A DNA stretch of 64,000 nucleotides from a virus, in IMG/VR virus record IMGVR_UViG_3300035701_000016, positions 11,104-75,103 of that record; one strand, given 5' to 3'. Shown here piece after piece: positions 5,185-61,009 of this stretch. Position 1 is the stretch's first letter; each line of letters starts with the position of its first letter. Under the pieces are notes generated by a model that did no database searches, was not told the DNA's origin, and worked only from the letters and a program-made list of their open reading frames with translations. A program made the position numbers and the translations under genes.

Positions 5185-5247
5185 TATGTCTCCATACCCT
5201 AGTCGTTTTTATCCGGTATTATTTCAAACCTGTTTGGCTACAATTTT

Positions 5248-5276: not shown

Positions 5277-5285
5277 TCATTTGAG

Positions 5286-12364: not shown

Positions 12365-12368
12365 AGTA

Positions 12369-13938: not shown

Positions 13939-13940
13939 TT

Positions 13941-37432: not shown

Positions 37433-37435
37433 CTT

Positions 37436-37464
37436 ATGAGTGGGATAACTAATATCCCACTCAT
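37436..37464 (-). terminator. hairpin after major capsid gene
   Basis: ATGAGTGGGATA/TATCCCACTCAT. Confidence 0.5.
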
Positions 37465-37486
37465 ATAAGGAGGAGACTATGGAACT

Positions 37487-38848: not shown

Positions 38849-38900
38849 TGGTTCTCCTCTACTATTTAAATAAGCACGATTAATTGGTTTCATAGCAAAC

Positions 38901-40286: not shown

Positions 40287-40309
40287 AGTTTACTCCTATT
40301 TATACCTAC

Positions 40310-40318
40310 ATTATACCA
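40310..40318 (-). promoter_or_regulatory. extended -10 promoter before protease/capsid
   Basis: GTGGTATAAT in the intergenic gap. Confidence 0.6.
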
Positions 40319-40340
40319 CTTCAGTATGATACAGACTAGC

Positions 40341-43451: not shown

Positions 43452-44089
43452 AGTTTATCCGTTATGTAGATGGCATTCACTCCATCATTTTGAATCATAT
43501 CGTACAAATGAGATTTAGTCCAATTTGTAATCCAATCAAAATTGAATGCAGATTCAATGATCATCATCTTTGGTCTCCAGATATCTGCATTGAATCCCGA
43601 AAGAACAGAAGGTTCACCACCCTCAACATCTATAACGATTAGATCCAGATTGGCTGGAACTTTATGCTGACAAAGTATGGTATCCAATTTCATACCATAA
43701 GCCTCTATAAATTTTTCTGGAGAATATTTCCAACCCCATCCTCTGGCAAGTTCATTGGCAGCTATACTTTCATTCAGAGTGCAAGCATCATAGAAATCTG
43801 CGTCACTAAGCCAGAGTTTCACCATTCCTTCGTGATCGGTAGCGGCACATTCAAGAACGATAACTTTATTATTCTTGTGCATTTCTTTGCAATCTTCCGC
43901 CAACTGATGTATGGGCTCAATATAGATACCGTTCCAACCAGCCTCAGCCAATCCCCAAGTATTAGACCAGTTGAAACCATTATGAGCTCCGATCTCCACG
44001 AAATATCCATCAACCTTATCATTGAAATATTTCGTGTAGAGTTCAAAAAGATTCGTTATCTGACAATCTTTGGCAGATTTATAGCTCAT
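43448..44089 (-). CDS. FkbM-family methyltransferase
   Basis: FVEIGAHNG...SNT, WNGIYIEP, IDVEGGE. Confidence 0.88.
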   Translation of the reverse strand: MSYKSAKDCQITNLFELYTKYFNDKVDGYFVEIGAHNGFNWSNTWGLAEAGWNGIYIEPIHQLAEDCKEMHKNNKVIVLECAATDHEGMVKLWLSDADFYDACTLNESIAANELARGWGWKYSPEKFIEAYGMKLDTILCQHKVPANLDLIVIDVEGGEPSVLSGFNADIWRPKMMIIESAFNFDWITNWTKSHLYDMIQNDGVNAIYITDKL

Positions 44090-44619
44090 AGCAGATCCTC
44101 ACGGTAGGCAACAAATAGATCTCTGGGCTCGGCATGTTCGTTATTCTCCAGAATAATTTTGAACAGTGGATCGATTTCATGGACAGCTTCTATGATATCG
44201 TCTACCGTAACATCTACCCAATGTTGAAATCCCATCAGACGCATATCATCTGCAAGAATTGTTACTGGAAATCTATGGAGATCTCTGATTGCTCCTATCT
44301 CTTCAAGTATAGGAGTACCGGCAGTCCAATGTCCCTCATGAGCATCTAACCAGAACATAGTAGGATACTCTAGATAAGGAATTAGCTCCATTAGAACTGA
44401 AACAGAATCTCCGGTCAGAAGAGTTACCTGGGGATAATCTTTCAATCTATCCAGGGCAAATTGATGCCATTCTGTACTGATATCGATAGAGTAGATTGTG
44501 TCAAATCCTGCATCAACGGCGGTTTGTACCGTATTTCCGGTCTCTGTTCCAGTTTCCACAAAAATCTTGGACTGCCCTTTATATTTCAACAAAATATCCA
44601 GAGGAAGACTTGCTGACAT
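44086..44619 (-). CDS. class I SAM-dependent methyltransferase-like protein
   Basis: FVETGT..G, GDS, FWLDAH, PILEEI, ILADD. Confidence 0.75.
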   Translation of the reverse strand: MSASLPLDILLKYKGQSKIFVETGTETGNTVQTAVDAGFDTIYSIDISTEWHQFALDRLKDYPQVTLLTGDSVSVLMELIPYLEYPTMFWLDAHEGHWTAGTPILEEIGAIRDLHRFPVTILADDMRLMGFQHWVDVTVDDIIEAVHEIDPLFKIILENNEHAEPRDLFVAYREDLL

Positions 44620-44675
44620 TTTATTTCTCCCCGTACTGGTCGGCCTGGATAGACCGACCAGTACATATATCCCGA

Positions 44676-45002
44676 CTAAACCGGAGGTTCCACCGGAGGA
44701 GGAACAGGATTGGCTAAAACAGCAGCCTGAATAGCGGCACTTTTCTTATCCAGATCGTCAGCAAGTTTCAGCATCAAGATAGGATCGTAGGCATTGTTCT
44801 TGATGTAAATTGACAGATCTGTAACGAGAGTGATGATACTATCAGCAGCACCCTCAATTGCCGTAACACGAGTAACTAGAAGATCTACTTCACCAGCCAT
44901 TTTTCTAATCTCCTTTGCCATAAAAGAAATATTGGTTTCAATTCGATCCAATTCATTGAGGATCTTACGAATCTTTTCGTACAACCATATTTTCATCATC
45001 AC
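44676..45002 (-). CDS. coiled-coil hypothetical protein
   Basis: AGGAGG Shine-Dalgarno; followed by hairpin at 44633-44664. Confidence 0.6.
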   Translation of the reverse strand: MMMKIWLYEKIRKILNELDRIETNISFMAKEIRKMAGEVDLLVTRVTAIEGAADSIITLVTDLSIYIKNNAYDPILMLKLADDLDKKSAAIQAAVLANPVPPPVEPPV

Positions 45003-45009
45003 CTCCTGT

Positions 45010-45126
45010 TCAATCAGGTTCTACATTATCATCCTCAAACTGATCATCACCACAGTAATCATCATTCTCGGAGTCTACGGTAGAACACTCGTCAAGATCA
45101 GTCTGGGAAGAATCATTCGGACCCAT
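45010..45126 (-). CDS. 38-aa acidic peptide
   Basis: Read manually: MGPNDSSQTDLDECSTVDSENDDYCGDDQFEDDNVEPD; GGAG upstream; fills the gap exactly. Confidence 0.45.
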   Translation of the reverse strand: MGPNDSSQTDLDECSTVDSENDDYCGDDQFEDDNVEPD

Positions 45127-45128
45127 AG

Positions 45129-48095
45129 CTACTCCCATAAATTTGCCGAGATTAGTAATACTTCTTCATCATCATTTCTTCTCTTCTTCTTCTCCCACCA
45201 GAATGGTTCCGCATGTCCAGGAGTTACTGCTACGATAGGAGCAGAAGGTGAAGGAGATGCGCTCATGGAAGAAGATATGGACGGTGATGCACTGACACTA
45301 GCAGAGATGGATGAACTTATCGATGGAGATGCACTTACCGAAGCACTCTTAGAAGAAGATATGGATGGAGAGGCAGAAATTGAAGCACTAATGGAAGCAC
45401 TAACAGAAGCACTCTTAGAGGCACTAATTGATACACTTACAGAAGCACTAATAGAAGCACTCAGAGAAGCACTGACAGAAGCACTTATGCTAGGTGAGGC
45501 AGATATTGAGGCAGACATGCTAGCTGATTTGGAAGCACTTATCGATGCACTTACAGAAACAGAAATGCTAGCAGAAATACTAGAAGAAATACTTTCAGAA
45601 ATACTAGGTGAAGCACTAACAGATGCAGAAATAGAAGGACTAGCTGAAATTGAAGAAGATAAACTAGCTGAAACAGAGGCTGAAATAGATGGACTAGCAG
45701 ATATACTCGCAGATATACTTGCACTTATTGATACTGAAACTGAAGCTGACTCTGATGCTGATACACTAGCACTAATAGATGCACTTTCACTGGTGGATAC
45801 AGAAGCAGAAACCGATGCGGAAATAGAAGCACTAATTGAGGGTGATGCAGAAATTGAAGCCGATTCACTAGACGATACACTGGCTGAGACACTAGCACCA
45901 ATACTAGGTGAAGAACTAACACTAGAAGAAATACTAGGAGAAGCAGATACACTAGCAGAAATAGAGGCACTTATACTCGCAGATACCGAAGCACTAATAC
46001 TTGGTGAAGCCGAGATAGATGCTGAAACAGAAGCACTTACAGAAGCTGAAATACTAAGACTCGCACTAACTGATGAAGATACACTGGCACTAACACTAGC
46101 AGACTTAGATGATGATACAGAAGAGGATATTGAGGGAGAAGCACTAAGTGAAGCACTTAGTGATGCTGATACGGAAGCTGATATACTAAGACTAGCTGAA
46201 ACAGAAGAAGAAATAGAAGCGCTTACTGAAGCACTTATACTCAGACTTGCAGAGATAGATGTACTGACCGAAGCGGATATACTAGCACTTATACTGGGAG
46301 AAGCGGATATACTAGCACTAAGAGAAGCACTAACAGAAGAGGATATAGAAGGAGATGATGATACTGATGAACTAACAGAGGAACTCACACTAGCAGAAAT
46401 AGAGGGTGAGGCTGATACGGAAGCACTAACACTAGCACTTGTGGAAGCACTTATTGATGGAGAAGCTGAAACTGATCCAGAAACAGACGATGAAATACTA
46501 GCTGATAAAGATGCAGATACAGATGCACTGATTGAAGGAGATGCAGATACTGATGCACTAATTGATGGACTTGCACTGATACTTGCACTGATGCTAGGAC
46601 TAGCTGAAATACTTGCACTCTCAGAAGCACTTTCGGAAGCTGAGATAGAAGGAGATGCACTGATACTAGCAGAGACGGATGCAGATATGGAAGCAGATAT
46701 ACTAGCACTTTTCGAAGCTGATATAGAAGCCGAAATTGAAGCACTTTCTGATGCACTGATTGATGGGGAAGCCGAAATAGATGCGCTCTCACTTGCTGAT
46801 ACTGAAGCGGATATACTGGGACTAGCACTTATTGATGCGCTTTCACTTGCAGATATAGAAGAACTTATACTAGGACTTGCTGACACTGAAGCTGAGATGG
46901 AAGCACTTACTGAGGCGCTTATACTTGGAGATGCTGAGATACTGGCGCTTTCAGAAGCAGAAATAGAAGCACTAATTGAAAGTGAAGCAGAAATACTGGC
47001 CGAGACTGATGCACTTACGCTGGACGAGATACTTGGGCTGGCACTGATACTTGCAGAAATAGATGCACTAATACTTGCACTTATAGATAGACTAGCACTA
47101 ACACTAGCAGATACTGACGCTGATATTGAAGCACTTATACTAGCCGAAATACTCGGACTTGCCGATACACTAGCACTCACTGAAGCACTAACTGACGCCG
47201 AGATGGAAGGACTTGCACTTACTGACGCCGATTTCGAAGAAGAAACTGAGGAAGATATACTAGGAGAAGCAGAAATTGAAGAGGATACCGAAGAACTTAT
47301 TGAAGGTGATGAAGATACAGATGATGAAACTGAAGCACTAATACTAGGAGATGCACTTACGGATTTACTTTCACTTGCTGATACTGAAGATGATGCACTT
47401 CCCACCACTCCCTTGAATGACTTCTTCATCATGTGGGGGAAGAATATCCTAGGATGGCTGGCAATCGGAACAGTCCCCTGCTCAACCATCTTAGCCCCGT
47501 TCATCAGATCGGGTTCATCCCCACTACTATCCCCACGAATTAGGGGATAGTAGGCGACCAGACTTTCGGGTTTGACAAATAGCGGAGAGTAACCTACTGC
47601 TAGTTGCTTAATATCCGCCAAGGTTAAAGCCACATTCCAGAAACCGACTTCGGCCAAAATCGCTTCTGCCGCCACTTTCCAATGAGAAGAGGTCGAATAC
47701 AACATAGTACCAAGTGTAGTTCTGCTTACAGTTGTGGCCGGAACTCGACTGGTAGTTTCATCCCCACCGCCTACTCCATTTGTATAACCAGTTCGTAAAG
47801 TAGCAGAGCTAAATACTGCGGCTGCATGATTCCACGCATTAACATTTGTAGCAGGCCCATAAGACGAACTGCTCGCACCTGCCGCCCAAGTTGTCGCTCC
47901 TACTGTTCCCGTTGTTGTTATAAGTCTAAGGCCAAACCCATCAGGGGCAGCATTTGTCGAAGTCAGATATACCAAGGACTGTTCTTGTGTGAATCCTGAT
48001 GGATATACCCAACACGCCATAGTCAGCGGCGTGGCTGTAATTAAGCCAGTCGCATTAAGAAAATAATTCGAGGTACTATGAACACCTCGTGCCAT
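45129..48095 (-). CDS. LamG/concanavalin-like domain + serine-rich repeat (SRR) protein
   Basis: TMACWVYP...WNHAAAV...Y.NG...[10 protein letters not shown] LamG signature; ~720 aa of (S-X)n SASIS/SASPS/SASVS; short charged C-terminal tail. Confidence 0.88.
45243..47400 (-). repeat. degenerate 6-bp-period coding repeat (Ser-X dipeptides)
   Basis: Recurrent gcact/gaagca/atacta units on +; synonymous codons vary throughout. Confidence 0.9.
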
Positions 48096-48595
48096 TATGT
48101 TTCCTTGACTTCTACTGCAAGCAATTCGGCATCCGTAGTTACGTCATCCGTACCTGCTGACCCATCCGCATCCCGGCGAACTTTCAGGCGGAACATTTCA
48201 CCAGCCGCCAAACTATCCATTTGTGCCCCATTGGTGAATGTGATTGTTACGAGAGTTGTAACTCCACTTGTTCCGTTTGGATTACCTGCCGCACTCTGAA
48301 CTGCGGCAAAACTATCCGCATCCATATCCAGAGAAGCATCATCCATACGCTCAATAGATACCGACCAATAGGCGCTGCCCGATGTGGCCGATGAGAACAT
48401 GACATGCAAGTAGACTGTCAGTCCTCCACCCGCATAATTACGTGGCAGGATACCGGAGAAAACCGCTTCTTCGTCCGCCGCACCATCAAAGTCAAGAACT
48501 GGATGATAGTTACGTAAATCCAGTGTGGCATAGATAGTTGCCGGAGGTTCATTACAATAAGGATTAAATACTGCTAAAGTATCACCGCTTGCCAT
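48095..48595 (-). CDS. hypothetical beta-rich virion-associated protein
   Basis: Coupled to SRR gene; FRLKVRRDA...DD jelly-roll-like pattern. Confidence 0.6.
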
Positions 48596-48882
48596 TAGTC
48601 TACCTCCCCGAATACCTGTTTGAGGATATTCAGATTAAAACGCATGAGAATTACCGCTACCAACAACAGCGACTTTTGAGAAGTAGTTGCAACGGTACGA
48701 AATGGGGTTGGAAGAGTGTTATTATAACTGACTGAGTTGGCATCCACCCAGGCATCCGCCGCCACAATCGCCGCCGTGAATTGGGTCTTTGTAAATGCTC
48801 CAGTCTGTTCGCGCAGGTTGGACCAATAACGTGAAAGACCTCGTTTTATTCTATCAATATCCACAGTTGATAATGTTGCCAT
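48595..48882 (-). CDS. hypothetical protein
   Basis: Start MATLST behind GGAG; coupled to next gene. Confidence 0.6.
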   Translation of the reverse strand: MATLSTVDIDRIKRGLSRYWSNLREQTGAFTKTQFTAAIVAADAWVDANSVSYNNTLPTPFRTVATTSQKSLLLVAVILMRFNLNILKQVFGEVD

Positions 48883-49024
48883 TGTATCATCTCCATATGC
48901 TGATTGAACGACTTCTTGAAGTGTGTCTCCACGAGTATGACAATCCAAGTATAAGATATTAATTACCGATGTTTGTTCTGGACGATAATATCCAGTTTTC
49001 CAATAATGATCCCAACTGAACCTC

Positions 49025-49939
49025 CTATGGAATAGATTCCCATCCAGGAACAGGCCAGAACTTCTCTACCAACCATGATAGAGAATGAATTTGTTTATCC
49101 CATTTTCCTTCGAAAAATAATTCTCTACATTGTTTCTTCGAGCGATTTACCTGTTTCTGCGACATATCGTACGGAAAACTGAAGTCTCCACCTTGAGTTC
49201 TAAACAGATGAGCATAATATGTTTTGTGATCAACCATGACCCTTCCACCACTAAGCCACGTCTTAGCAGCTACTTCTATGCCCTGAGATCCCCATGATCC
49301 AAAACCTTCATCACATATATTCAAATCAAACCACTTATCTTTTGTCAACATAAAACATGATCCCTGAAGAGACATGGTCTCGGTAAGATCTCCTTGTCCC
49401 TCAGGTCTCTTTTTAAAATCATTAAAGTACTGGAAATGCGGTTCTGAATCGAAACAATACGAAGTAGACTGAGGATTCTCTTTAGCCTTCCAAATAATCT
49501 TTCTGTAAAGATTTGTACCACCACAAACTTCACACTTCTCAGGGGTAGGACCCTGATATGTTCTTTTTCCACATTTCCTACACTTCCAGTCGAAAGCCCA
49601 TAAGTTACGCATGATCGGAACTATTGTCCAATCATCCTGTATATCCTCTAACAATACTCTATCAAAACCCTGGGCAAACGAGCAATGAGCATCAGCTTTC
49701 ATGATATATTTGGAATCAGCCAACTTAACTCCATCGTTACAGGCTGCTCTCTGTCCTATAGATACGGGATGAAAGAGTACGGTAACATCAGCATTCTGAT
49801 CGATAGGAGGATCCGCCCATTGTCCATCCAGAACTACTATCACTTCAGTATTGGCTTCCTTGTGCTGAAGGATATCCTGAACAGTTTTAGCCACAAACAT
49901 TTCGTTTCTGGACGGAATAACTACACTCAAATCATGCAT
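49025..49939 (-). CDS. GT2 glycosyltransferase (paralogue of 53473-54375)
   Basis: SVVIPSRNE, VVLDG, KADAHC, QGSCF, WLSGGR, YAH, F.PVPGW; DxH and WLxGG resemble polypeptide-GalNAc-transferase-like GT-A. Confidence 0.85.
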   Translation of the reverse strand: MHDLSVVIPSRNEMFVAKTVQDILQHKEANTEVIVVLDGQWADPPIDQNADVTVLFHPVSIGQRAACNDGVKLADSKYIMKADAHCSFAQGFDRVLLEDIQDDWTIVPIMRNLWAFDWKCRKCGKRTYQGPTPEKCEVCGGTNLYRKIIWKAKENPQSTSYCFDSEPHFQYFNDFKKRPEGQGDLTETMSLQGSCFMLTKDKWFDLNICDEGFGSWGSQGIEVAAKTWLSGGRVMVDHKTYYAHLFRTQGGDFSFPYDMSQKQVNRSKKQCRELFFEGKWDKQIHSLSWLVEKFWPVPGWESIP

Positions 49940-50537
49940 CTTTCCTCAGTTTGGAAATGATAACTTTTCCGGGATAATCTTCTGTAACATAATTTGTGAA
50001 TTTTTCGAATAACGGATCAATAAGCGTAGCATGTCTACTCCATATGAAAAACATACCTCCTGAGATGGGAGATATATTCCATCTATGTTCATTAGCATAG
50101 TTATGAAGTTTACCGTTATCTACATAGTGTCTAAGATATATCCAACCTCCAACTTTGCAAACTCTATACATTTCTCTAATAGCCAGAAGAGGATTTCCAC
50201 AATGATCCAGAGAATTTACGCAATGAACTATGTCAAATTGTTCATTATCATACGTCAATAGTCTCATATCCTGCTTCTCTATCCTAATCTCAGGAATAAC
50301 TCCCTTTTCAACCAGCATAGAATTATATTCATCTGCTAGAAGATCGGATGGATACAGATGAATTTCTGTCTCAGGCCAAGTTGATCCAGTAGTAGAAAAC
50401 ATACCAGCTCCAAGATCAGCAATATCTACTATCTTCTTATTTCCTATCATCTCCCCGAAATAATAGTCCAACTGAAATATTTTATTGAATTGCTTCTCTT
50501 TGTAAGGAAGCTTATTTCTGTAGAATCTTAAGGTCAT
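49932..50537 (-). CDS. class I SAM-dependent methyltransferase
   Basis: IADLGAG, FDIVHCVNSLDH, EMYRVCKVGG. Confidence 0.85.
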   Translation of the reverse strand: MTLRFYRNKLPYKEKQFNKIFQLDYYFGEMIGNKKIVDIADLGAGMFSTTGSTWPETEIHLYPSDLLADEYNSMLVEKGVIPEIRIEKQDMRLLTYDNEQFDIVHCVNSLDHCGNPLLAIREMYRVCKVGGWIYLRHYVDNGKLHNYANEHRWNISPISGGMFFIWSRHATLIDPLFEKFTNYVTEDYPGKVIISKLRKDA

Positions 50538-51021
50538 TCAAGAACTCCAGAGAACACATCTTACTTATGACAGTGGTATGAGGATTGAATATATTATAGT
50601 CAAATCTATATTTAAATCTTGAGTATATTCCGGAATAATGATAGAAATTATCTTCCTTAGGATTGGAATCATGCAGAACTATGTAATCTACCAAGTCTTC
50701 TATCCTTACAGCTAGATAGGATCTAAATTCCATAGGATTTACATCTATAATTCCTATATCAAAATGTCTACTAAGATCAATAGTTGTCCAATCAGCGATT
50801 AAATGAGTTTCATGATGAGTATTATTATTTTTTCCGAATAAATTTAAGTATTTCTCATAATTCTCATATGAAACCAAATCCCTATCCTGAGAAACACAAG
50901 CCCAGAATAGAAGTGGTGTACTATATAATCCCATACCTAATTCAAGAACATTTCCAGTAGTATGCTCTAGAAGTTTTAAAAGAACGGGTATGTGAGAACC
51001 CCACCTCATTGTAATTTTCAT
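50512..51021 (-). CDS. SAM-dependent methyltransferase-like protein
   Basis: VLELGMGLYST, SYEN, IID, VLHD. Confidence 0.7.
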   Translation of the reverse strand: MKITMRWGSHIPVLLKLLEHTTGNVLELGMGLYSTPLLFWACVSQDRDLVSYENYEKYLNLFGKNNNTHHETHLIADWTTIDLSRHFDIGIIDVNPMEFRSYLAVRIEDLVDYIVLHDSNPKEDNFYHYSGIYSRFKYRFDYNIFNPHTTVISKMCSLEFLNDLKILQK

Positions 51022-51692
51022 ACTAGACCTAACTTTGTTCTAACAACTCTGGTCGTGCCCCAATACGGTAGGGATCTGGTGGTTTCACCCGCGATAGTCA
51101 GAGTATTGGCTCGCAATCCCAGTCCAGTCTTTATACTCACTACGGGAATATCCGTACCATACCAATTCCAATTCTGATTCAAATTCCTGAAAGGATTGGT
51201 AGGATAATGTCCATTCAACCACAGAGGCTTTCCTTCCAATTCCTTTTCCAACAGATCCAAATAGTATTCTCTGCCTATAATTTGAGCTCCTTCACACCAT
51301 CTCTTCTTGAAGAAGTATCCTCTATGATGCTTCAGAATCCAAACATTACTATATCTATATATTGAATCTAGTTTGCTTGGTTCTATGTCAAAATAGTCTC
51401 TGGGATAAAGATTGTCTGCCTCTGCTGATATAACAAATGGAGTAAATATACTTTGACAGGCTATCTGAATTTGTCTGTATAGATTATGATCATTGGCTCC
51501 AACATCTCCCACACAGATATTTTCTCCGAAATCAATCTGTTTCTGAGATACTGACAGAATAGGAAATCCGGGATTCATTCTCATGAGAACTTTTTGTATT
51601 TTTTTCTCGAAATTTTCATCCTCTCTGTTGGATGTATAGTAGATAATAGTTGCGTCGTTCTTATTCATATAGAGTGACCGCAATAAGGACAC
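51018..51692 (-). CDS. GT-A fold glycosyltransferase-like protein
   Basis: TIIYYTSN, SVS.K.IDFGENICVGD.G, AEADNLYP; paralogue of next gene. Confidence 0.7.
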   Translation of the reverse strand: MSLLRSLYMNKNDATIIYYTSNREDENFEKKIQKVLMRMNPGFPILSVSQKQIDFGENICVGDVGANDHNLYRQIQIACQSIFTPFVISAEADNLYPRDYFDIEPSKLDSIYRYSNVWILKHHRGYFFKKRWCEGAQIIGREYYLDLLEKELEGKPLWLNGHYPTNPFRNLNQNWNWYGTDIPVVSIKTGLGLRANTLTIAGETTRSLPYWGTTRVVRTKLGLV

Positions 51693-52423
51693 TGATTGAC
51701 CATATGATTTTCATCATATAATTTCATAACCTGATCAGCTGTACCCCACGGAACCAACTCAGTTCCTCTCAACGGACCGAGAGCCTTATTTTCACCAACC
51801 GGATGCTCTCTACCTACCGGAGTAGATACATATCCAAGAGCAAGTGGATGAGAGAAGACAACCATTGGTCGTCCACCCCAACCTTCCTCGGTAGAAATTG
51901 GTTTCAATCCTAACTTTCTATCGTATCGTCCTGGTTCTCCACAGAATTGGGTGTCATAGGCAGGAAATTTTTCAAGACGTTCAGTTAGAGATCTTACCAA
52001 AAGATCTCTGGTACATATTAGACTAAATATTATCATTCTGTGTCGCCATGAGAATACCATAGGTTTTGACCATGTGAATATACTCCACTTATTCATATCG
52101 TACCATAAAGTATCGTCACTGATTGGTCTTCCCTGAAAATGCTGTCTAGGATATAGAACATCATCTTCAGCCATAGCCACATATTTCGTTTTTGCAGCAA
52201 TCGCACCTGTAAGGATCTGCCAGTAGATATTGCGATTGGATCTACCGATATCTCCTACGCAGATGTTTTCTCCGAAATCCATAGGTTTATGAGATACAGA
52301 TATCAAAGGAGTATCCTGTATAGCTTCCTTTAGAACCCTTTTAGTATTATCTACAAAGTAGGGATTGTGTTCATCCAGATAATTACTGGTATAATATATG
52401 ATTGTTAGATCAGTATGTATCAT
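51665..52423 (-). CDS. GT-A fold glycosyltransferase-like protein
   Basis: TIIYYTSN, DFGENICVGDIG, TKYVAMAEDDVLYP. Confidence 0.72.
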   Translation of the reverse strand: MIHTDLTIIYYTSNYLDEHNPYFVDNTKRVLKEAIQDTPLISVSHKPMDFGENICVGDIGRSNRNIYWQILTGAIAAKTKYVAMAEDDVLYPRQHFQGRPISDDTLWYDMNKWSIFTWSKPMVFSWRHRMIIFSLICTRDLLVRSLTERLEKFPAYDTQFCGEPGRYDRKLGLKPISTEEGWGGRPMVVFSHPLALGYVSTPVGREHPVGENKALGPLRGTELVPWGTADQVMKLYDENHMVNQCPYCGHSI

Positions 52424-52953
52424 AATTTAATCCAGAACCAACTTGGAACTCTTTCCTTCGTAAGATACCAGGGATCAATTCTGTGTTCCTTGACATAGGC
52501 ATCCACAGCAGTTATTACTCCAAATTCCTGTCTATTGAAGTAGTCATGTCCAGACACTATTCCACCAGATCTTACTTTCCTATTCCATTGAATGATATCT
52601 GTAACAGCATAGTCAAACGTATGATTGGCATCTATGTAAACAAAATCTAAACTACCATCCTCAAACTCAGGAATGGCATCCATGCTACTACATTTCATGA
52701 AAGTAACGTTATGATGTCTAAGTAACTTCCTAGCCTGATGAAAATGCTCATCATGAAAACCACTGTAGTCCCAGGGATCATTTTCGTCATCTTCCCACAA
52801 ATCTATACAATACAATTTAACTCCTGGTACACTATCGCAAATATATCGTGAGAATTTACCTTTGGCTACACCAATCTCAACTCCAGTCTTGTATCCCAGA
52901 GTATTGAATAATCCTGCCAGATCGAATCTTGTATCAACTCCGAAGTAATTCAT
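52420..52953 (-). CDS. Methyltransf_24-type O-methyltransferase
   Basis: GVEIGVAKG, IDLW, LDFVYIDANH, KVRSGGIVSGHDY. Confidence 0.88.
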   Translation of the reverse strand: MNYFGVDTRFDLAGLFNTLGYKTGVEIGVAKGKFSRYICDSVPGVKLYCIDLWEDDENDPWDYSGFHDEHFHQARKLLRHHNVTFMKCSSMDAIPEFEDGSLDFVYIDANHTFDYAVTDIIQWNRKVRSGGIVSGHDYFNRQEFGVITAVDAYVKEHRIDPWYLTKERVPSWFWIKL

Positions 52954-53498
52954 GGCTTGAACCAGAACCAGGAAGTTTCTCTATCCAGTGTAAGATAAAC
53001 TTGTGGAATCTTGTGAACAGAGACATAACAATCTACAGCTTGCACAACACCACCATCTCCTGCAGGGAAATGGAAATAATCATGACCGGAAACAATTCCT
53101 CCCGACTTTACTTTCTTACTCCATTCAATGATATCTTCCATGACATAATCAAAATCATGATTGCCATCTATATAGACGAAATCTAAACTCTTATCGTTTA
53201 TACATTTTACAGCATCCATACTCATCATCTTAAGAAATTCTACTCCGAAAAATCCCCAAAGATTACTTCTGGCTATCTCGTAAAATTCCTGCTGATGATT
53301 CTTTGAAGCTTTTACATCATATCCTGGATACATATCCCATATATCCACACAGTATAACCTAAGATTAGGAATAGCCTTGCATAATTTCAGAGAGTATTCT
53401 CCCTTCATAACTCCTATCTCAGCCCCTACTCGAAATCCTCTATCCATGAAGAATTTCGGCAAATCATCTCGTTTATTCACATTGGGATATTTCATCAC
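52950..53498 (-). CDS. Methyltransf_24-type O-methyltransferase
   Basis: GAEIGVMKG, VDIW, LDFVYIDGNH, KVKSGGIVSGHDY; tandem paralogue. Confidence 0.88.
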   Translation of the reverse strand: MMKYPNVNKRDDLPKFFMDRGFRVGAEIGVMKGEYSLKLCKAIPNLRLYCVDIWDMYPGYDVKASKNHQQEFYEIARSNLWGFFGVEFLKMMSMDAVKCINDKSLDFVYIDGNHDFDYVMEDIIEWSKKVKSGGIVSGHDYFHFPAGDGGVVQAVDCYVSVHKIPQVYLTLDRETSWFWFKP

Positions 53499-54375
53499 CT
53501 ATCTCCGATTTCTCTGCCCATCCAGGGACAGGTGAAAATTTTTCAATCAACCATTCCAAGGGCAAAGTCTGTTTAGGCCATGCCTCTTGAAAGTTCAACC
53601 ATTTCATGGTATAATTCCTAGGTACATAGACATCTTGATGAAGTGAATATCCACGATGCTTTCCTTTATACCAGTGAGCATACCATGTTTTCTTATTCCT
53701 AACAATTCTACCACCTGACAACCAACACTTCAAAGCGATTTCTTGAAACTCGGCAAAGAATGTACCATAATTAATGTCATCCAATAATTCCAACTCTTTA
53801 TAGTATGACCTGTGCATGAACCAGCATGATCCCTGAGCAGCCATCAGATCAACAATTAAATCATCCTTCAGAGACTTATCCTTATTCTTCTCGTCCCAGA
53901 TTAAACCATGCAATCCTACCAATTCACCCTTACGGTAGGGATAACACATATATTCATAATCGATATCCGGTCTGCCATCTTCTAGAATTGACCAGGTATC
54001 CGGTAGAAGTCTCTTTCGTCTGGGAACAGATATCCAGTTATCCTCACAGTCAGCAACCAGTTTTGTATCGTATCCTACGTCAAACATGCAGTGAGCATCA
54101 CATTTCAATATGTGCTCTCCTCTTGCTATCTCTACTGCCGAATTGATTGCCGGTCTCATTCCTCTCGCCAGTCCTCTATGAAGTATGATTACTTTCTTGG
54201 AAGGTGGATCCAAGGGAGTCTCTCCATACGGTAGGGGAATGGTTGGCATAGGATCAGGCCAATATCCGTCAAGAACAACTATGATCTCAATCTCACCCTG
54301 AGCTTTGGCAAGAAGATCATCAACAGTCTTAACTAGATACGGTTCATTCCTGGCAGGGATAATGATACTAATCAT
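53473..54375 (-). CDS. GT2 glycosyltransferase
   Basis: SIIIPARNE, VVLDG, KCDAHC, QGSCW, WLSGGR, WYAH; coupled to the portal stop. Confidence 0.85.
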   Translation of the reverse strand: MISIIIPARNEPYLVKTVDDLLAKAQGEIEIIVVLDGYWPDPMPTIPLPYGETPLDPPSKKVIILHRGLARGMRPAINSAVEIARGEHILKCDAHCMFDVGYDTKLVADCEDNWISVPRRKRLLPDTWSILEDGRPDIDYEYMCYPYRKGELVGLHGLIWDEKNKDKSLKDDLIVDLMAAQGSCWFMHRSYYKELELLDDINYGTFFAEFQEIALKCWLSGGRIVRNKKTWYAHWYKGKHRGYSLHQDVYVPRNYTMKWLNFQEAWPKQTLPLEWLIEKFSPVPGWAEKSEIGDEISQCE

Positions 54376-56522: not shown

Positions 56523-57863
56523 CTATCCCATCCCCACGGACCATGAGTCACTGTAATTCGCAAGGTGCATGGCTAGATACCGTGTGGTGTCCATACCGTG
56601 ATCGTCTACCTTGCGAGGAGTTTCTTTCTTTTCCTGATTTTCCCACTCGTACCCATCGTATTCTTGTTCTGATGAATACGGTCTCATCTCCTCTATGAGA
56701 GAAGTATCAGGCTCAAGTACAGAGTCACGAAGATACATCAATCCAGGTTTTCCATCTTCTACCGGACGTAGTTTGGACATTACTGTATGGATACCAGACA
56801 ATACATCTTTCACCGCCGGTACAGTCTCAACATTCATGTGTCTTTCAAACGTAGCCCTATCCTCAGCATCCCAGTCGCATATCGTTACGATCGGATCTGG
56901 TTCCTCGTTCTCTATCTTCCAAGCCTTGATGATAGCAACAGCATCCTCAACAAGTAAATTTCTCTGATAGATTTCAGCGAAGCGGTAGGCGTGACCATGA
57001 TCATCAGAAGCCCATGCTTGCCATACGAAAGGATTAGTGTAACCGAAATCAATAACCCAATATCTCGCCCAATTTCTGGGGATCGGGAATCTTGGGATCA
57101 GATGAATATCTGGATTCCAAGTTGTATAGATCATTCCCTCAGCAGCCGCCCAAACTCCCTCGTAGAAACGTTTTAGACGTACACCGGATAGACCTTGTAG
57201 CTTTGACAAATAAGCCAATCCTCTCGGAGTCCAAGTCTGAGTTAGCGGATCAAAGTAGGCAGGATTATCCTGATGAACGGACGATACAAGATTGATCTCT
57301 TTCTTGTCTCCCTTTCGCTTGATCCAATGTGATGGATAACTAGGATTGCAATCACCAACGAGTTGCTGATACGGTACAACACCGTGACGACATCGTATAT
57401 AAAGCGTCTCCCAGTCCTCTTCCGTCAGCTCGGTAGCCTCCTGAGCGTAGATCCAATCATACTCTGATGACATTACCTTGATAGCTTTATCCATACCGCC
57501 TATGGCGACAACCGACCCGTTGGAGTAGCGATACTCCTGCTCTCCCGTGCGCCAGTGGACTGATTCGTCATCTACCATGACAAACTTCTCATAAGTTACC
57601 AGAGCTGACTGAGTCAATGATGCTCTTGTCTTTCTCACTATTAGAGAACGCATACCAGGATACTTCATGGACATAAGATGCATCTTCTCCAACGCCGCTC
57701 GTGACTTGCCCGTACCGGAGGGACCGCACAGAACGATCTGATCAGAGTGGTCATAGAAGAAGTCTTTGAAATGACCATAGGGTTGATAAACTTTGTTCCT
57801 GGGATCTCGACGAGGATCTGCCTCGGCGGTAACAGTCCTGGCGGGAGAGTCTACGGCAACCAT
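56523..57863 (-). CDS. terL: terminase large subunit (PBSX-like)
   Basis: GPSGTGKS, IVRKT, QEATE, DCNP, VIDFG, DDHGMD..RY. Confidence 0.93.
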   Translation of the reverse strand: MVAVDSPARTVTAEADPRRDPRNKVYQPYGHFKDFFYDHSDQIVLCGPSGTGKSRAALEKMHLMSMKYPGMRSLIVRKTRASLTQSALVTYEKFVMVDDESVHWRTGEQEYRYSNGSVVAIGGMDKAIKVMSSEYDWIYAQEATELTEEDWETLYIRCRHGVVPYQQLVGDCNPSYPSHWIKRKGDKKEINLVSSVHQDNPAYFDPLTQTWTPRGLAYLSKLQGLSGVRLKRFYEGVWAAAEGMIYTTWNPDIHLIPRFPIPRNWARYWVIDFGYTNPFVWQAWASDDHGHAYRFAEIYQRNLLVEDAVAIIKAWKIENEEPDPIVTICDWDAEDRATFERHMNVETVPAVKDVLSGIHTVMSKLRPVEDGKPGLMYLRDSVLEPDTSLIEEMRPYSSEQEYDGYEWENQEKKETPRKVDDHGMDTTRYLAMHLANYSDSWSVGMG

Positions 57864-58138: not shown

Positions 58139-58507
58139 CTAGATTCTGTCGTCATCAATACCGGCGTAGACTTTGAAGATGTTGACGCCCTGGAAGGTGT
58201 TAGTCTGTACCGGACCATCCAGATGGGAAGCAATGAACTTAACGGTATCCAACCAGATCTTGACATCATCAATTCTGAGATCCACGGTAGTACCATCCGC
58301 GAACATGATAGTCCCTTCCGTAACTGCATCCCAGATCATCAGCGCAAGATAGTCAGCGTAGCTGATATTCTTGTTGACACTCTCAGCAAAGAACTCCTTC
58401 ACCCCGACTCTTCTCATGGCTTCCGCCACCAGTCGTTTCGAGATCTCATTCGGGGTCACAATCTGGTTAGGATTCTTGGGGTCGATTATAGATATTTCAC
58501 CACTCAT
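58139..58507 (-). CDS. putative terminase small subunit
   Basis: First gene of the late operon; HLDGPVQ tail; ATG 6 nt after TGGTATACT, possibly leaderless. Confidence 0.5.
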   Translation of the reverse strand: MSGEISIIDPKNPNQIVTPNEISKRLVAEAMRRVGVKEFFAESVNKNISYADYLALMIWDAVTEGTIMFADGTTVDLRIDDVKIWLDTVKFIASHLDGPVQTNTFQGVNIFKVYAGIDDDRI

Positions 58508-58513
58508 ACCCAT

Positions 58514-58522
58514 AGTATACCA
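58514..58522 (-). promoter_or_regulatory. extended -10 promoter of the packaging operon
   Basis: GTGGTATACT, same form as the promoter at 40310. Confidence 0.6.
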
Positions 58523-58750
58523 CAAAAGCCGAAAAGGGAATAGTGCAACTTTCTTCCCGCTCCTCCCTTCGGGGAGACGGAGTTGGTGTTGGCGGTCGGG
58601 GCAATAATCTGGGTCTGGGTCTGGGTCTGAGTCTATGTCGGGTCGGTCATCTAATTTTTTCGTCCGCTATTTTGGGGAGGGGTTGTACCCCTAGGGTGCA
58701 AGTATTGGCCTGTTTTGGGATATTGCATGTTACAAACACGTAAAACGGCC

Positions 58751-58756
58751 TATAAT
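58751..58756 (+). promoter_or_regulatory. -10 box of first rightward early promoter
   Basis: TATAAT about 130 nt upstream of 58887; -35 weak. Confidence 0.5.
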
Positions 58757-58886
58757 AGTAGATAGAGAACCTTACTAATTGAATAAGCAAACCGAACGCA
58801 GTGACCTTGCGAGTGTGGTAAGACGAGGGCTGTACAGTTGGACGGTGCAAGGAAGGTTACAAGTATAGCCTACATGGAGGTGTATT

Positions 58887-59300
58887 GTGGCCAAAAAAGT
58901 AGTACTGCCCGTTGAACACAAGTTTGCCGCTATAAGCGGTAAATGTGCAATTTGCGGTAAGCCAACACCCCTGAACGTGGCGGGGGAAATTGGTGCAACG
59001 TGTAAAGCGCATGAAGGCAAGATTGGCAAGTATTACCGCCAATTACCGAAGAACGCAAACCTGGAGGGTGAGTACGTGAAGCTAAGTGTACTGTGCCGTA
59101 GAGCAGAGCAGGCGGGAAAAACTGCCGGATTTGTTGTGGGGTTGACCGGAAAGGATGGGGGAACGCAACCCCCGTACAACCCCATATGGCAAGTTTACAC
59201 CCTGCAACATGGCACGCAGGTGCGCAAGTTTTTGGAGCTTGAAGCGAAGGCCGAGCTTGAGAAACTACTTACTGGCAAACCCGAAAGCGTAAGCAAATAG
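58887..59300 (+). CDS. early hypothetical protein with N-terminal zinc finger
   Basis: GGAGG Shine-Dalgarno; CAICGKP...IGATCKAH (DUF6011-like). Confidence 0.75.
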   Translation: MAKKVVLPVEHKFAAISGKCAICGKPTPLNVAGEIGATCKAHEGKIGKYYRQLPKNANLEGEYVKLSVLCRRAEQAGKTAGFVVGLTGKDGGTQPPYNPIWQVYTLQHGTQVRKFLELEAKAELEKLLTGKPESVSK

Positions 59301-59358
59301 GGATAATAAACAGGCCTGTATGAAAGTACGGGCCTGTTAGTAAAGCGGAGGTATTACA

Positions 59359-59625
59359 ATGGTGGATAAAGTAATGGATAACATGGTACATGACTTTGGT
59401 GGGGACGAACAAGTGTACCAACTGGACGTGATTGTGAACCAGGGTAACGTTTACGTGGTTGACGGAAGCAACACAAGTGAGGTACTTATTGACGGTACTG
59501 ATACAATGGTACTTGTGTATGCTTTATTGGGCTGGGACGCTGACGGTATACATGTGCCCGTACAATTGACAAAGTTTTACAATGCACTAAACTTTGCGCA
59601 AGCGTGGTACGAGCGCAACAAGTAA
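59359..59625 (+). CDS. early acidic hypothetical protein
   Basis: GGAGG Shine-Dalgarno; flanked by hairpins. Confidence 0.75.
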   Translation: MVDKVMDNMVHDFGGDEQVYQLDVIVNQGNVYVVDGSNTSEVLIDGTDTMVLVYALLGWDADGIHVPVQLTKFYNALNFAQAWYERNK

Positions 59626-59681
59626 GCGGACAAAAAGTGGCCTGTACGCAAGTACAGGCCTAGTTGAAAGCTGAGGATGGA

Positions 59682-59831
59682 ATGCACAGTGAATATGGCG
59701 GGAAGTTACACGCACGCTACAGGCCAGAACAAGCGGTTTGTAATAATGGTAGTAGCACTTTGGTTGTGCTACTTTGCGGCATAGCAATTATTGCACTTGT
59801 AGCAATTGCTGCATATGTGATTTTGCTGTAA
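59682..59831 (+). CDS. small membrane protein (49 aa)
   Basis: Read manually: MHSEYGGKLHARYRPEQAVCNNGSSTLVVLLCGIAIIALVAIAAYVILL; GAGG upstream; followed by terminator hairpin. Confidence 0.6.
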   Translation: MHSEYGGKLHARYRPEQAVCNNGSSTLVVLLCGIAIIALVAIAAYVILL

Positions 59832-59890
59832 GTTTGCACAGGCCCGTACGCAAGTACGGGCCATTTTTTGGCGCGTGAATAAGACAATGG

Positions 59891-60001
59891 GGGTAGTTTT
59901 GGTGGTATTTAGGTAGGCAGATAATTTGGGTAGTTATGGTGGTACTTAGGTAAGTGGGTAATTTGGGTAGTTATGGTGGTATTTGGGCAAGTAAGCAAGT
60001 A
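59891..60001 (+). repeat. three tandem 37-bp GT-rich repeats
   Basis: GGGTAGTTWTGGTGGTAYTT... starting at 59891, 59928 and 59965. Confidence 0.85.
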
Positions 60002-60058
60002 AATTGCAAGTACAGCCAGCAACCCTGATCCTGAAGATCTGATGCTGATCTTGAAAGC

Positions 60059-60169
60059 GATACCACGATCTTCCCGCGATACCACGACCCTGAATCTTCC
60101 AGAGATACCACGAAACTGACTGCCTATCTTCCCACGATACCACGCTGAAATATCTTCCCACGATACCAC
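60059..60169 (+). repeat. GATACCAC motif array 1 (5 copies)
   Basis: Copies at 60059, 60078, 60104, 60136, 60162. Confidence 0.85.
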
Positions 60170-60209
60170 AAACTGATGCGAAATTGATTGGTGCAAATGG
60201 CGTCATTTG

Positions 60210-60283: not shown

Positions 60284-60529
60284 ATGTCAAATGGGAAATT
60301 GGTTTCACCGATAGAGCTTCACAAAGCAGCGTGTGATTCAATGTTGTTCGGTGATTCTCCGGTAACACTCAACGACTGGGTCCTAATCGTTAACTTCTAT
60401 GCAGTCAATATCGCCAAAGAAGTTCAACCATCTGCAACTCTGCTTCTGTGCAAAATCATGGATTGTCCACTTCGGGAAGATTTCATAGCGGATGTCGTTA
60501 ATTTCCAACTCAAGCAACCCGTCAAGTAA
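60284..60529 (+). CDS. early hypothetical protein
   Basis: AAGGAGG Shine-Dalgarno; followed by hairpin GGGCGGG-TGAAAG-CCCGCCC. Confidence 0.7.
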   Translation: MSNGKLVSPIELHKAACDSMLFGDSPVTLNDWVLIVNFYAVNIAKEVQPSATLLLCKIMDCPLREDFIADVVNFQLKQPVK

Positions 60530-60902: not shown

Positions 60903-60978
60903 GATACCACGAGAGAATCTGAAGCTGATACCACGTCCGTCTTCACCCGATACCACGATCATCTTCACGAGATACCAC
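60903..60978 (+). repeat. GATACCAC motif array 2 (4 copies)
   Basis: Copies at 60903, 60927, 60949, 60971. Confidence 0.85.
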
Positions 60979-61009
60979 AATCAATTTGCCATCAGTTGCC
61001 TTTCCCTAC

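What the first reader, a model, noticed from the sequence alone, without database searches (positions are those of the whole stretch)
58665..60028. 1.36 kb with no TC dinucleotide on the + strand
Seen: reading base by base, the last TC is at 58663-58664 and the next at 60029-60030, leaving 1364 nt without TC where several tens are expected; TC is abundant everywhere else. The gap covers a promoter, three genes (Ser only AGY, Phe only TTT, no ATC/GTC/CTC, no NNT-CNN junctions), three hairpins and untranscribed flanks. GA on the same strand is common, so the avoidance is strand-specific. It begins at the divergence point upstream of the terminase operon, a likely packaging end, and stops abruptly at a GATC-dense stretch. 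Inference: this may be a first-injected or transiently single-stranded leader purged of a target motif. Candidates are a TC-context ssDNA enzyme (DarT-type ADP-ribosyltransferase, cytidine deaminase), a UC-cutting RNase, or the phage's own context-specific base modification, kept off DNA that host RNA polymerase must read first. The three genes are candidate anti-defence or takeover factors.
Basis: partly seen in the sequence, partly recalled or inferred. Interest (0 to 1): 0.9.

Follow-up and report, generated by a model that had tools for sequence, protein, structure and literature searches.

The report
Phage early gene cassette without TC
An uncultured 75-kb sediment phage and seven relatives keep the first early gene unit, next to the terminase genes, completely free of the two-letter DNA word TC. 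Most of them even drop aspartate and glutamate from the encoded regulator, so something in the infected cell must read or mark exactly that word.

Summary
Window 58665-60028 (1364 nt) has no 5'-TC-3' on the + strand. About 57 are expected from its own base content, 103 from flanking density, and 32 in the three ORFs alone under a synonymous-codon null.

It is not an assembly artefact. Seven related uncultured phages have the same island beside terS, giving 8,454 nt in total with 0 TC against about 609 expected. In six of them GA (TC on the other strand) is also nearly or wholly gone, and the only GA left in the main gene is often the codon for a family-invariant Asp. Paralogues outside the islands and an island-less relative use TC normally.

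The island is the first transcription unit of the early arm. It holds a sigma-70-type promoter, a Zn-ribbon plus winged-helix DNA-binding regulator, small genes, GNRA-loop hairpins, a terminator and repeat DNA. Arrays of GATACCAC-type repeats follow it directly.

Best reading (about 0.38): a cassette kept free of the phage's own TC-context DNA modification, so that naive host polymerase can read it first. The main rival (about 0.28) is escape from a host TC-directed DNA enzyme.

No responsible enzyme was found. The scan had already noted such islands elsewhere, including the sister phage's island.

The parts
58665..60028 (+). TC-free island: 1364 nt with no 5'-TC-3' on the + strand and no GATC, TCGA or TTAA
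58640..58690 (.). Conserved left-edge element (TTT-n-GTC-n-TATTTTT, then TTTAGCC-like). It is present in all 8 phages between terS and the island. It is a candidate late promoter or pac/cos-related site.
   Evidence: eight flanks side by side; function inferred
58729..58756 (+). Sigma-70-type promoter GTTACA-16-TATAAT of the island unit
   Evidence: equivalent TATAAT or extended -10 boxes in relatives
58887..59300 (+). ORF1, 137 aa. An N-terminal Zn-ribbon (C20, C23, C39, H42) is followed by a C-terminal winged helix. It belongs to an unnamed 27-member family and is the only island gene conserved across the clade.
   Evidence: no Pfam or PHROG family
59309..59338 (+). Hairpin 1: 13-bp stem closing a GAAA loop, -21.5 kcal/mol
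59359..59625 (+). ORF2, 88 aa, with no family and no homologue in the sister phage
59639..59660 (+). Hairpin 2: 9-bp stem with a GCAA loop, -17.8 kcal/mol
59664..59831 (+). ORF3, 55 aa, with a hydrophobic C-terminal helix. Small membrane-type ORFs lie at the same place in L040 and L055.
59841..59870 (+). Intrinsic terminator: 9-bp stem, GCAA loop and T-run
59881..59990 (+). Three direct repeats about 37 nt apart, each carrying GTGGTAYT. This is the inverse of the downstream ATACCAC motif, written without the TC that a perfect inverse would hold. The repeats lie past the terminator but are still TC-free.
60055..60175 (+). Array of five GATACCAC(G) repeats directly after the island. It lies outside the island and is TC-rich. 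It sits upstream of the next early promoter and ORF 60284-60529.
   Evidence: analogous arrays follow every related island
58139..58525 (-). Conserved 128-aa gene just upstream of TerL, a small-terminase candidate, divergent from the island
   Evidence: role inferred from position only (no Pfam or PHROG hit)
56523..57863 (-). Terminase large subunit

Best explanation
The island is the immediate-early master-switch cassette of the phage, kept by selection as ordinary, unmarked DNA.

Inferred: virion DNA of this clade carries a post-replicative base modification installed at 5'-TC-3', which reads GA on the other strand.

Shown: one 0.8-1.4 kb unit at the head of the early arm has been rewritten without TC. 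It holds a consensus host-type promoter, the gene of a Zn-ribbon/winged-helix DNA-binding regulator, small genes, terminators and repeat-bearing control DNA. The rewriting is total on the coding strand, where it costs only synonymous changes. On the other strand it goes as far as the protein allows, which means loss of nearly all Asp and Glu in six of eight phages.

Inferred: on entry, unmodified host RNA polymerase can use this stretch at once. Its regulator then binds the GATACCAC-type arrays in front of the next early promoters and opens the modified remainder of the genome.
For: 1. The purge is conserved and selected. There are eight islands beside terS totalling 8,454 nt, with 0 TC against about 609 expected. 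ORF1 homologues are only about 43% identical.
2. Both strands are under pressure. GA o/e in the eight islands is 0.62, 0.54, 0.54, 0.16, 0.11, 0.08, 0.07 and 0. The 0.54 of L050 comes almost entirely from its repeat flank: 33 of its 34 GA lie beyond the terminator. The main proteins have 0-3 Asp+Glu in six phages. In L042 and L050 the only GA in the gene is the codon of the family-invariant Asp of the GGD motif, and in L040 and L046 even that Asp is lost.
3. The purged zone is a block of DNA with sharp edges, not just a transcript. It extends 10-252 nt beyond the T-run terminator (887 nt in total, about 65 TC expected). It also extends 49-86 nt upstream of the -10 box in the five other phages measured, against about 5 nt in L050.
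4. Controls use TC normally. Paralogues outside the island have 33 TC in 459 nt and 33 in 603 nt. The island-less relative G004 has an ORF1-family gene beside terS with normal TC/GA and many Asp/Glu.
5. The only clade-wide island gene is a DNA-binding regulator (AF2 pLDDT 88). Its winged helix matches MerR/Xis/BldC/Par-type domains at Z 3.5-4.9. Repeat arrays follow each island.
6. Dinucleotide-specific phage DNA marks have precedent. The T-dioxygenase 5mYOX97 prefers NTC (PMC13229309). The DpdA of phage iggy has a strict GA motif (PMC10484667). In iggy's relative PBPA162 the 1-kb divergent control region has TC o/e 0.28 and GA 0.23 against 0.78 genome-wide.
7. The genome carries a cluster suggestive of non-canonical pyrimidine metabolism: a divergent ThyX, a MazG plus HAD 5'-nucleotidase fusion, a viral FAD oxidoreductase and a GT2.
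Against: - No enzyme that could set a TC-context mark was found. There is no Tet/JBP, TGT/DpdA or QueC in G000 or G001. Pfam searches of the replication-arm, head-module and most early ORFs showed no DNA methyltransferase or deaminase.
- The ThyX/MazG-HAD/FAD cluster is also present in island-less G004, and the GT2 is absent from island-bearing G002. No gene tracks the island.
- In this phage and its sister the template strand keeps 72 and 42 TC, also in non-coding parts, while the coding strand has none. If a mark blocked the polymerase, the template strand should matter most.
- CAjan, another GA-modifying phage, has no exempt region.
- Modification of this phage's DNA is not shown at all.
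Confidence: 0.38

Rival explanations
1. Escape from a TC-directed DNA enzyme that is not the phage's own mark. This could be a host immune or toxin enzyme, or a nuclease brought or induced by the phage, that attacks 5'-TC-3' in DNA. Candidate types are a DddA/SsdA/APOBEC-type cytidine deaminase, a T4 endonuclease IV-like T^C ssDNA nuclease, or a frequent nickase. The cassette is the first DNA to be used, and by analogy with lambda and T5 the first to enter. It must therefore survive before counter-measures exist. The always-clean strand is the non-template strand that is unpaired in transcription bubbles.
For: - The fully clean strand is always the coding (non-template) strand. This holds in L051 too, where the island is inverted relative to terS.
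- In the flanks of G000, G001, L050 and L055 taken as non-transcribed, 584 nt hold 0 TC but 47 GA. That asymmetry cannot come from coding cost.
- No phage gene tracks the island, and close relatives lack it, as expected if the pressure comes from the host.
- By lambda/SPP1-type logic, DNA on the far side of terS is packaged last and injected first (established knowledge, inferred here).
- T5's first-step-transfer DNA lacking EcoRI sites is a precedent for site-free leader DNA (from my own knowledge, not checked here).
Against: - Six of eight phages also purge the template strand at the price of Asp and Glu. An enzyme limited to the displaced strand would not demand that.
- The zone has sharp edges and includes DNA beyond promoter and terminator.
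- The one conserved island product is a DNA-binding regulator, not an obvious inhibitor, and the other 70 kb stay TC-rich.
- There is no deaminase-type signature. TT is not raised more than TA or TG, nor AC more than GC or CC.
- DarT's TNTC motif cannot explain the loss of every TC.
Confidence: 0.28
2. An mRNA-level purge. The immediate-early transcript lacks UC, and in most relatives GA as well, so that it survives an endoribonuclease of that specificity. The analogy is ACA-less messages that survive MazF. The RNase would be active at the start of infection, either as host abortive-infection defence or as phage host shut-off.
For: - The clean strand equals the message in all eight phages, including the inverted L051.
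- In L050 the TC-free stretch begins only about 5-8 nt upstream of the -10 box.
- Avoidance is independent of reading frame and also covers the UTRs.
Against: - TC-free DNA continues 59-252 nt past a strong terminator in six of seven phages and about 50-85 nt upstream of the -10 box.
- The GA purge would need a second specificity.
- I know of no RNase with UC dinucleotide specificity in phage-host conflict. The nearest case is a collateral-cleavage preference of some Cas13b enzymes (own knowledge).
- All other phage messages are UC-rich.
Confidence: 0.06
3. The island is a physical genome feature whose strands pass through a special state during annealing, nicking or strand displacement. It could be a direct terminal repeat, a first-step-transfer segment bounded by an injection-stop array, or a replication origin with iterons. 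TC is then excluded because the phage's own terminase, primase or nuclease acts at TC there.
For: - The size (0.8-1.4 kb), sharp edges and position beside terS fit such a feature. So do the iteron-like direct repeats inside the 3' part and the arrays of inverted-sense repeats just outside.
- Phage iggy has a 1091-bp terminal repeat, and its relative has a TC/GA-poor 1-kb divergent region of that size.
- Assemblies of both runs break in the terS-island spacer.
Against: - Nothing shows where the ends are, because only contigs were available.
- The interior of the island is inverted in L051 without loss of the feature.
- No enzyme with TC preference is known for these steps.
Confidence: 0.1

Closest known systems
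Sequence-context-specific phage DNA hypermodification: T-dioxygenase 5mYOX97 (NTC; PMC13229309) and the dPreQ0 transglycosylase of phage iggy (strict GA; PMC10484667)
   Same: These are phage enzymes that mark DNA at exactly this dinucleotide step, after replication. In iggy's relative PBPA162 the 1-kb divergent control region is threefold depleted of TC and GA.
   Different: No Tet/JBP, DpdA or Que gene is present here. No paper read here reports a modification-free gene cassette. Here the depletion is absolute, covers genes and reshapes proteins.
Site-free first-entering DNA: T5 first-step-transfer region without EcoRI sites, and the T7 early region / strand-biased EcoP15I sites (own knowledge)
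   Same: A leader or early segment lacks a target motif that is common in the rest of the genome, and one-strand bias can disarm an enzyme.
   Different: Those motifs are 5-6 bp restriction sites. Here the motif is a dinucleotide, expected about 100 times, and removing it from the second strand costs all acidic residues. Entry order is unknown here.
Restriction-site (palindrome) avoidance in phage genomes
   Same: Selection removes short words from phage DNA. The rest of this genome strongly avoids CGCG, GCGC, GGCC and TTAA.
   Different: The island does the opposite for those palindromes: GCGC and GGCC are 11-fold denser than elsewhere. What it bans is a non-palindromic 2-mer, and only locally.
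Motif-less messages that resist mRNA interferases (ACA-less mRNAs and MazF) (own knowledge)
   Same: A whole coding unit is respelled synonymously to lack a nuclease's word.
   Different: Here non-transcribed flanks are purged too, and the complementary word is purged in most relatives.
APOBEC3-type TC footprints in animal viruses; bacterial TC-preferring deaminase toxins (DddA, SsdA) (own knowledge)
   Same: The preferred context is TC, and the non-template strand is the exposed one.
   Different: Those footprints are mild, genome-wide depletions. Here the loss is total and local, with no TT excess.

Membership tests
Context-specific phage DNA hypermodification system (5mYOX / DpdA type) | Gene for the context-specific enzyme (Tet_JBP dioxygenase, or TGT-like DpdA with preQ0 genes) | tested here: not met
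   PF12851, PF01702 and PF06508 give no match in G000 or G001, and PF12851 gives none in G002-G004 either. Controls rang for TGT and QueC.
Context-specific phage DNA hypermodification system (5mYOX / DpdA type) | The target motif equals the depleted word | tested here: met
   NTC preference of 5mYOX97 and strict GA motif of iggy DpdA, compared with TC/GA absent from the islands.
Context-specific phage DNA hypermodification system (5mYOX / DpdA type) | Non-canonical bases present in virion DNA | not testable with these tools
   Only assembled contigs of two sediment metagenome runs were available.
Context-specific phage DNA hypermodification system (5mYOX / DpdA type) | Accessory genes of pyrimidine replacement or hypermodification | tested here: inconclusive
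   A divergent ThyX, a MazG+HAD nucleotidase fusion, a viral FAD oxidoreductase and a GT2 lie next to PolA. The cluster (without the GT2) is also found in island-less G004. No 5-hmdU DNA kinase or amino-acid:DNA transferase turned up in the general Pfam/PHROG scans, but their own profiles were not run.
Site-free first-injected leader (T5 FST type) | Motif absent from the segment and common elsewhere | tested here: met
Site-free first-injected leader (T5 FST type) | The segment is at a physical genome end and enters first | not testable with these tools
   No raw reads were available. The position beside terS is only suggestive.
DarT-type ssDNA ADP-ribosylation target avoidance | Avoidance limited to the TNTC-type four-base motif | tested here: not met
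   Every TC is missing, whatever its context.
TC-context cytidine deaminase footprint | TC replaced mainly by TT (and GA by AA) | tested here: inconclusive
   TT and AA are raised, but so are TA, TG, AC, GC and CC. The ORFs are intact with synonymous respelling.
Interferase-resistant (motif-less) mRNA | The motif-free zone coincides with the transcript | tested here: not met
   The zone extends 887 nt in total beyond the terminators of seven phages, and 49-86 nt upstream of the -10 box in five of the six phages measured (about 5 nt in L050). Promoters and terminators are predictions.
MerR/Xis/BldC-type winged-helix DNA-binding proteins (ORF1) | Winged-helix fold of the C-terminal domain | tested here: inconclusive
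   The AF2 model has pLDDT 88 with H-E-H-H-E-E-H order. VIA-align Z is 3.5-4.9 to many such domains over residues about 60-135. Foldseek found nothing at E<=0.001.

The most novel reading that the evidence does not exclude
Phages use the presence or absence of a dinucleotide-context DNA mark as a temporal switch. The whole genome is chemically marked at TC and is unreadable, or protected, at entry. One purged cassette, holding the master regulator and its control DNA, is the only ordinary DNA. Similar TC/GA-free cassettes noted by this scan in unrelated phages would then be footprints of a widespread, undescribed epigenetic gene-timing system, or of a widespread TC-directed immunity, and they would point directly to each phage's first-acting gene.
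Probability: 0.3. Interest if true: 0.9.

Novelty: new variant of a known kind. Interest (0 to 1): 0.8.

Why it matters
Removing a word expected about 100 times per kilobase-scale cassette, and giving up aspartate and glutamate to do so, is among the strongest nucleic-acid-level constraints seen on a protein-coding gene. It implies an activity with dinucleotide specificity, either a DNA mark or an attacking enzyme, that decides the fate of incoming phage DNA.

The islands are easy to find by computation. They flag the first gene a phage needs. They also give a ready experimental handle: put TC back and see what breaks. That handle could lead to a new DNA modification or a new immune enzyme in uncultured phage-host systems.

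Tried and rejected
- No similar DNA exists in the phage collection. ORF1 used as a single query found no viral loci.
- The three island ORFs and seven neighbours have no Pfam or PHROG family. No Rfam family reaches threshold.
- Sequencing runs: only two sediment DNA runs hold the stretch, both as contigs. No RNA holder is listed. Laying them gave one SNP and no information on termini or coverage.
- The 7-deazaguanine idea is rejected for this phage, which has no TGT or QueC. Tet/JBP is absent too.
- The gene-versus-island presence table (G000-G005) found no gene that tracks the island.
- CAjan, taken as a second positive control, showed no exempt region.
- The thymidine-hypermodification paper PMC8989533 gives no sequence context.
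- Literature searches for dinucleotide-free phage regions found nothing.
- Considered and dropped: UV photoproduct avoidance (TT is abundant); Rho rut avoidance (CC is normal or high); CRISPR PAM avoidance (it would need the whole genome to be purged, not one 1-kb island); GATC-only or other restriction-site avoidance (all TC is gone, while GGCC, GCGC and GTAC are enriched); tRNA or codon-level causes (avoidance is frame-independent and extends to non-coding DNA); GCAAG as a Chi-like signal (it flips with the inverted island).
Full report
**Observation.** On the + strand the last TC before the gap is at 58663-58664 and the next is at 60029-60030.
- The next-longest TC gap in the window is 202 nt, and no other dinucleotide has a gap above 541 nt.
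- The window is bases 11104-75103 of a 75,103-bp single-contig virus record whose ends overlap by 127 bp. The gap is unique in that genome.
- The 1364 nt hold 328 T and 239 C, so 57.5 TC are expected from composition. Flanking density predicts 103.
- Recoding the three ORFs with genome codon usage gives 32.2 TC on average, and none of 5000 recodings of any ORF had zero.
- Serine is AGY only, Phe is TTT only, and no ATC, GTC or CTC occurs, although these codons are common in the genome.
- GA on the same strand occurs 72 times, in all three frames and in non-coding DNA, at o/e 0.62 against 1.26 window-wide.
- A second sediment run holds the same sequence with one SNP.

**Anatomy.**
- Almost all genes from window 117 to 58525 lie on the - strand: lysis and replication genes, then tail, head, portal, TerL (56523-57863) and a conserved 128-aa terS candidate (58139-58525).
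- From the island onwards genes lie on the + strand. This early arm wraps around to about genome position 7000. The island is therefore the first unit of the early arm, divergent from the terminase operon.
- In order, the island contains a GTTACA-16-TATAAT promoter (58729-58756), ORF1 (137 aa), a hairpin, ORF2 (88 aa), a hairpin, ORF3 (55 aa, hydrophobic tail), and a terminator with a T-run (59841-59870).
- The three stems close GAAA, GCAA and GCAA loops and fold at -21.5, -17.8 and -19.8 kcal/mol.
- Another 158 TC-free nucleotides follow the terminator. They hold three direct repeats with GTGGTAYT.
- Immediately after the edge come five forward copies of GATACCAC(G) in TC-rich spacers, upstream of the next promoter and gene. 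A second array of four copies precedes the next gene.

**Relatives.**
- The closest TerL relative (63% identity; a 70-kb IMG/VR contig, L001/G001) has a 1007-nt stretch with no TC on the strand opposite TerL, at the same place. It holds a homologue of ORF1 (43% identity), a different small ORF, and two GCAA-loop hairpins.
- Profile searches with the ORF1 family and with the terS candidate brought six more independent contigs: L040, L042, L046, L050, L051 and L055. Each has a TC-free island of 797-1420 nt beside terS.
- Together the eight islands are 8,454 nt with 0 TC against about 609 expected.
- More distant terS relatives (L052/G004, L056, L057/G005) have none. The 41-kb G004 contig has no TC or GA gap above 179 nt. 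It carries an ORF1-family gene next to terS with ordinary TC/GA and many acidic residues.
- Each island phage with enough sequence on hand also has ORF1 paralogues outside the island that use TC normally. In this genome they have 33 TC in 459 nt and 33 in 603 nt.
- The purge is therefore a local, inherited, selected property and not a property of the gene family.

**The other strand.**
- This phage and its sister are the exceptions. In the other six islands GA is nearly or wholly gone from the gene-bearing part.
- Across the eight islands GA o/e is 0.62, 0.54, 0.54, 0.16, 0.11, 0.08, 0.07 and 0. The 0.54 of L050 is due to its post-terminator flank, which holds 33 of its 34 GA.
- The main island proteins of those six have 0-3 Asp+Glu. 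In L042 and L050 the single GA inside the gene is the codon of the family-invariant Asp of the GGD motif. L040 and L046 have lost even that Asp.
- The remaining GA in L040 and L050 lie in the repeat arrays (ACCACGA / GACAACACGA) at the 3' edge.
- TC is therefore disfavoured on both strands. It is removed completely where removal is synonymous, and on the other strand as far as function allows.
- In G000 and G001, however, GA persists in non-coding parts too, while TC is absent. In the flanks of G000, G001, L050 and L055 taken as non-transcribed, 584 nt hold 0 TC and 47 GA. A genuine strand preference exists there.
- In L051 the island's interior is inverted, with a 235-aa ORF co-directional with terS. 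The fully clean strand is again the coding strand.

**Extent.**
- The TC-free zone runs past the predicted terminator by 158, 59, 72, 141, 252, 195 and 10 nt in seven phages, 887 nt in total where about 65 TC would be expected.
- It starts 49-86 nt upstream of the -10 box in the five other phages measured, but only about 5 nt upstream in L050.
- The post-terminator parts hold direct repeats in every case. Beyond the edge, TC density is at once normal or high.
- This argues for a constraint on a block of DNA rather than on a message, with the caveat that promoters and terminators are predictions.

**Gene content.**
- ORF1 belongs to an unnamed family of 27 metagenomic proteins with the pattern CxxCGKP...G.TC..H.GK ... 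GGD.
- The AlphaFold model (pLDDT 88) shows a Zn-ribbon-like N-terminus and a winged-helix C-terminal domain.
- The unbiased structural scan returns MerR, Xis, BldC, RacA and plasmid Par DNA-binding domains at Z 3.5-4.9. Foldseek gave nothing significant.
- It is the only island gene conserved across the clade, and L042 and L050 carry it alone.
- Together with the repeat arrays in front of the following early promoters, this suggests a master early DNA-binding regulator. That is an inference.

**Mechanism.** Three kinds of actor could read TC.

(a) *The phage's own DNA mark.*
- Published phage enzymes do have this resolution. The T-dioxygenase 5mYOX97 oxidises T in NTC after replication (PMC13229309). 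The DpdA of phage iggy places dPreQ0 strictly at GA (PMC10484667).
- In iggy's relative PBPA162, the 1-kb divergent non-coding region has TC o/e 0.28 and GA 0.23 against 0.78-0.79 genome-wide, with the longest TC gap of the first 50 kb of the record. CAjan shows no such region.
- The present genome has, next to its split PolA, a divergent ThyX, a GT2, a MazG-type pyrophosphatase fused to a HAD 5'-nucleotidase (DxDGT motif) and a viral FAD oxidoreductase. These hint at a non-canonical pyrimidine.
- However, there is no Tet/JBP, DpdA or QueC. The cluster also occurs in island-less G004, and the GT2 is missing from island-bearing G002.

(b) *A host, or phage-borne, TC-directed DNA enzyme.*
- This explains why the coding (non-template) strand is always clean, why no phage gene tracks the island, and why close relatives differ.
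- It does not easily explain the costly purge of the template strand in six phages, the sharp edges, or how a regulator would protect the remaining TC-rich 70 kb.
- No deaminase-like TT excess is seen.

(c) *A UC-specific RNase.* This fits the strand but not the flanks or the GA purge.

I rank (a) at 0.38, (b) at 0.28, a physical-end or origin explanation at 0.10, and (c) at 0.06. The rest is unassigned.

**Shown.** The purge itself, its conservation, its cost to the proteins, its position and its contents.

**Inferred.** Immediate-early status, first entry, the regulator's targets, and any modification.

**Known or new.**
- Motif avoidance in phages is well known, including site-free leader DNA in T5 and strand-biased sites in T7 (own knowledge).
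- A total, local ban on a dinucleotide that rewrites proteins was not found in my literature searches.
- This scan has noted the phenomenon before on other DNA. One note is the sister phage's island itself (e1-5344246). Others describe TC/GA-free cassettes with Asp/Glu-less proteins in unrelated phages, and one describes a lineage with a TC-purged coding strand. I did not test those beyond the sister island.
- I class the finding as a new variant of a known kind (motif avoidance) with an unknown agent.

Noticed in passing
window 60060-60170, 60904-60980, 61896; genome 1210-1445: There are forward-only arrays of (G)ATACCAC spaced about 19-32 nt apart in intergenic DNA of the early arm, each upstream of a + strand gene. 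Related islands are followed by analogous arrays: TACCACGA, GAGATACCACA, GAT(A/G)CCACGA, GACAACACGA and GCRTACAT. They are probably operator or activator sites.
   Followed up: partly
window 58590-58640: A (GGGTCT)n-like tandem repeat lies in the terS-island spacer. Contigs of both sediment runs break or vary here, and short high-depth contigs pile up (depth 42 against 14.6).
   Followed up: no
window 8401-11194: The family-A DNA polymerase is split into a 534-aa and a 209-aa ORF, with an HNH-type ORF (9053-9586) between them. At least four more HNH-type or homing-endonuclease ORFs lie in the replication arm (genome 7995-8477; window 3367-3867, 5286-5747, 12369-12866).
   Followed up: no
window 11615-15709: This cluster holds a divergent ThyX, a homing endonuclease, a GT2, a 97-aa ORF, a MazG plus HAD 5'-nucleotidase fusion and a viral FAD oxidoreductase. 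All except the homing endonuclease are conserved in G001. In G002 and G004 the same set recurs without the GT2. It is a candidate non-canonical pyrimidine pathway.
   Followed up: partly
window 36119-54375: The head module is interleaved with six GT2-type glycosyltransferases and five Pfam-supported methyltransferases (two FkbM, two Methyltransf_24, one class I), around a 988-aa serine-repeat protein.
   Followed up: partly
whole genome G000: Outside the island the genome strongly avoids CGCG, GCGC, GGCC and TTAA and has zero copies of ten 6-bp palindromes. TC/GA-containing palindromes (GGATCC, AGATCT, GATATC, TCCGGA) are 2-2.5-fold over-represented. The island is 11-fold denser in GCGC and GGCC.
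   Followed up: partly
L063 (PBPA162, MK816297) 42700-43700: The 1-kb divergent non-coding region of this Iggyvirus (a genus with GA-specific dPreQ0) is threefold depleted of TC and GA only. It holds the longest TC gap (299 nt) of the first 50 kb of the record.
   Followed up: partly
L050 reverse strand, about 5159-5353 in the coordinates: The post-terminator flank has 33 GA and 0 TC in 195 nt. This is an extreme one-strand bias within a repeat array (GACGCTGA / GACAACACGA).
   Followed up: no
genome 1791-3311 (L058): An early 506-aa protein has a GHKL ATPase domain and weak RIIA-like PHROG hits. It is conserved in G001, G002, G003 and G004.
   Followed up: no
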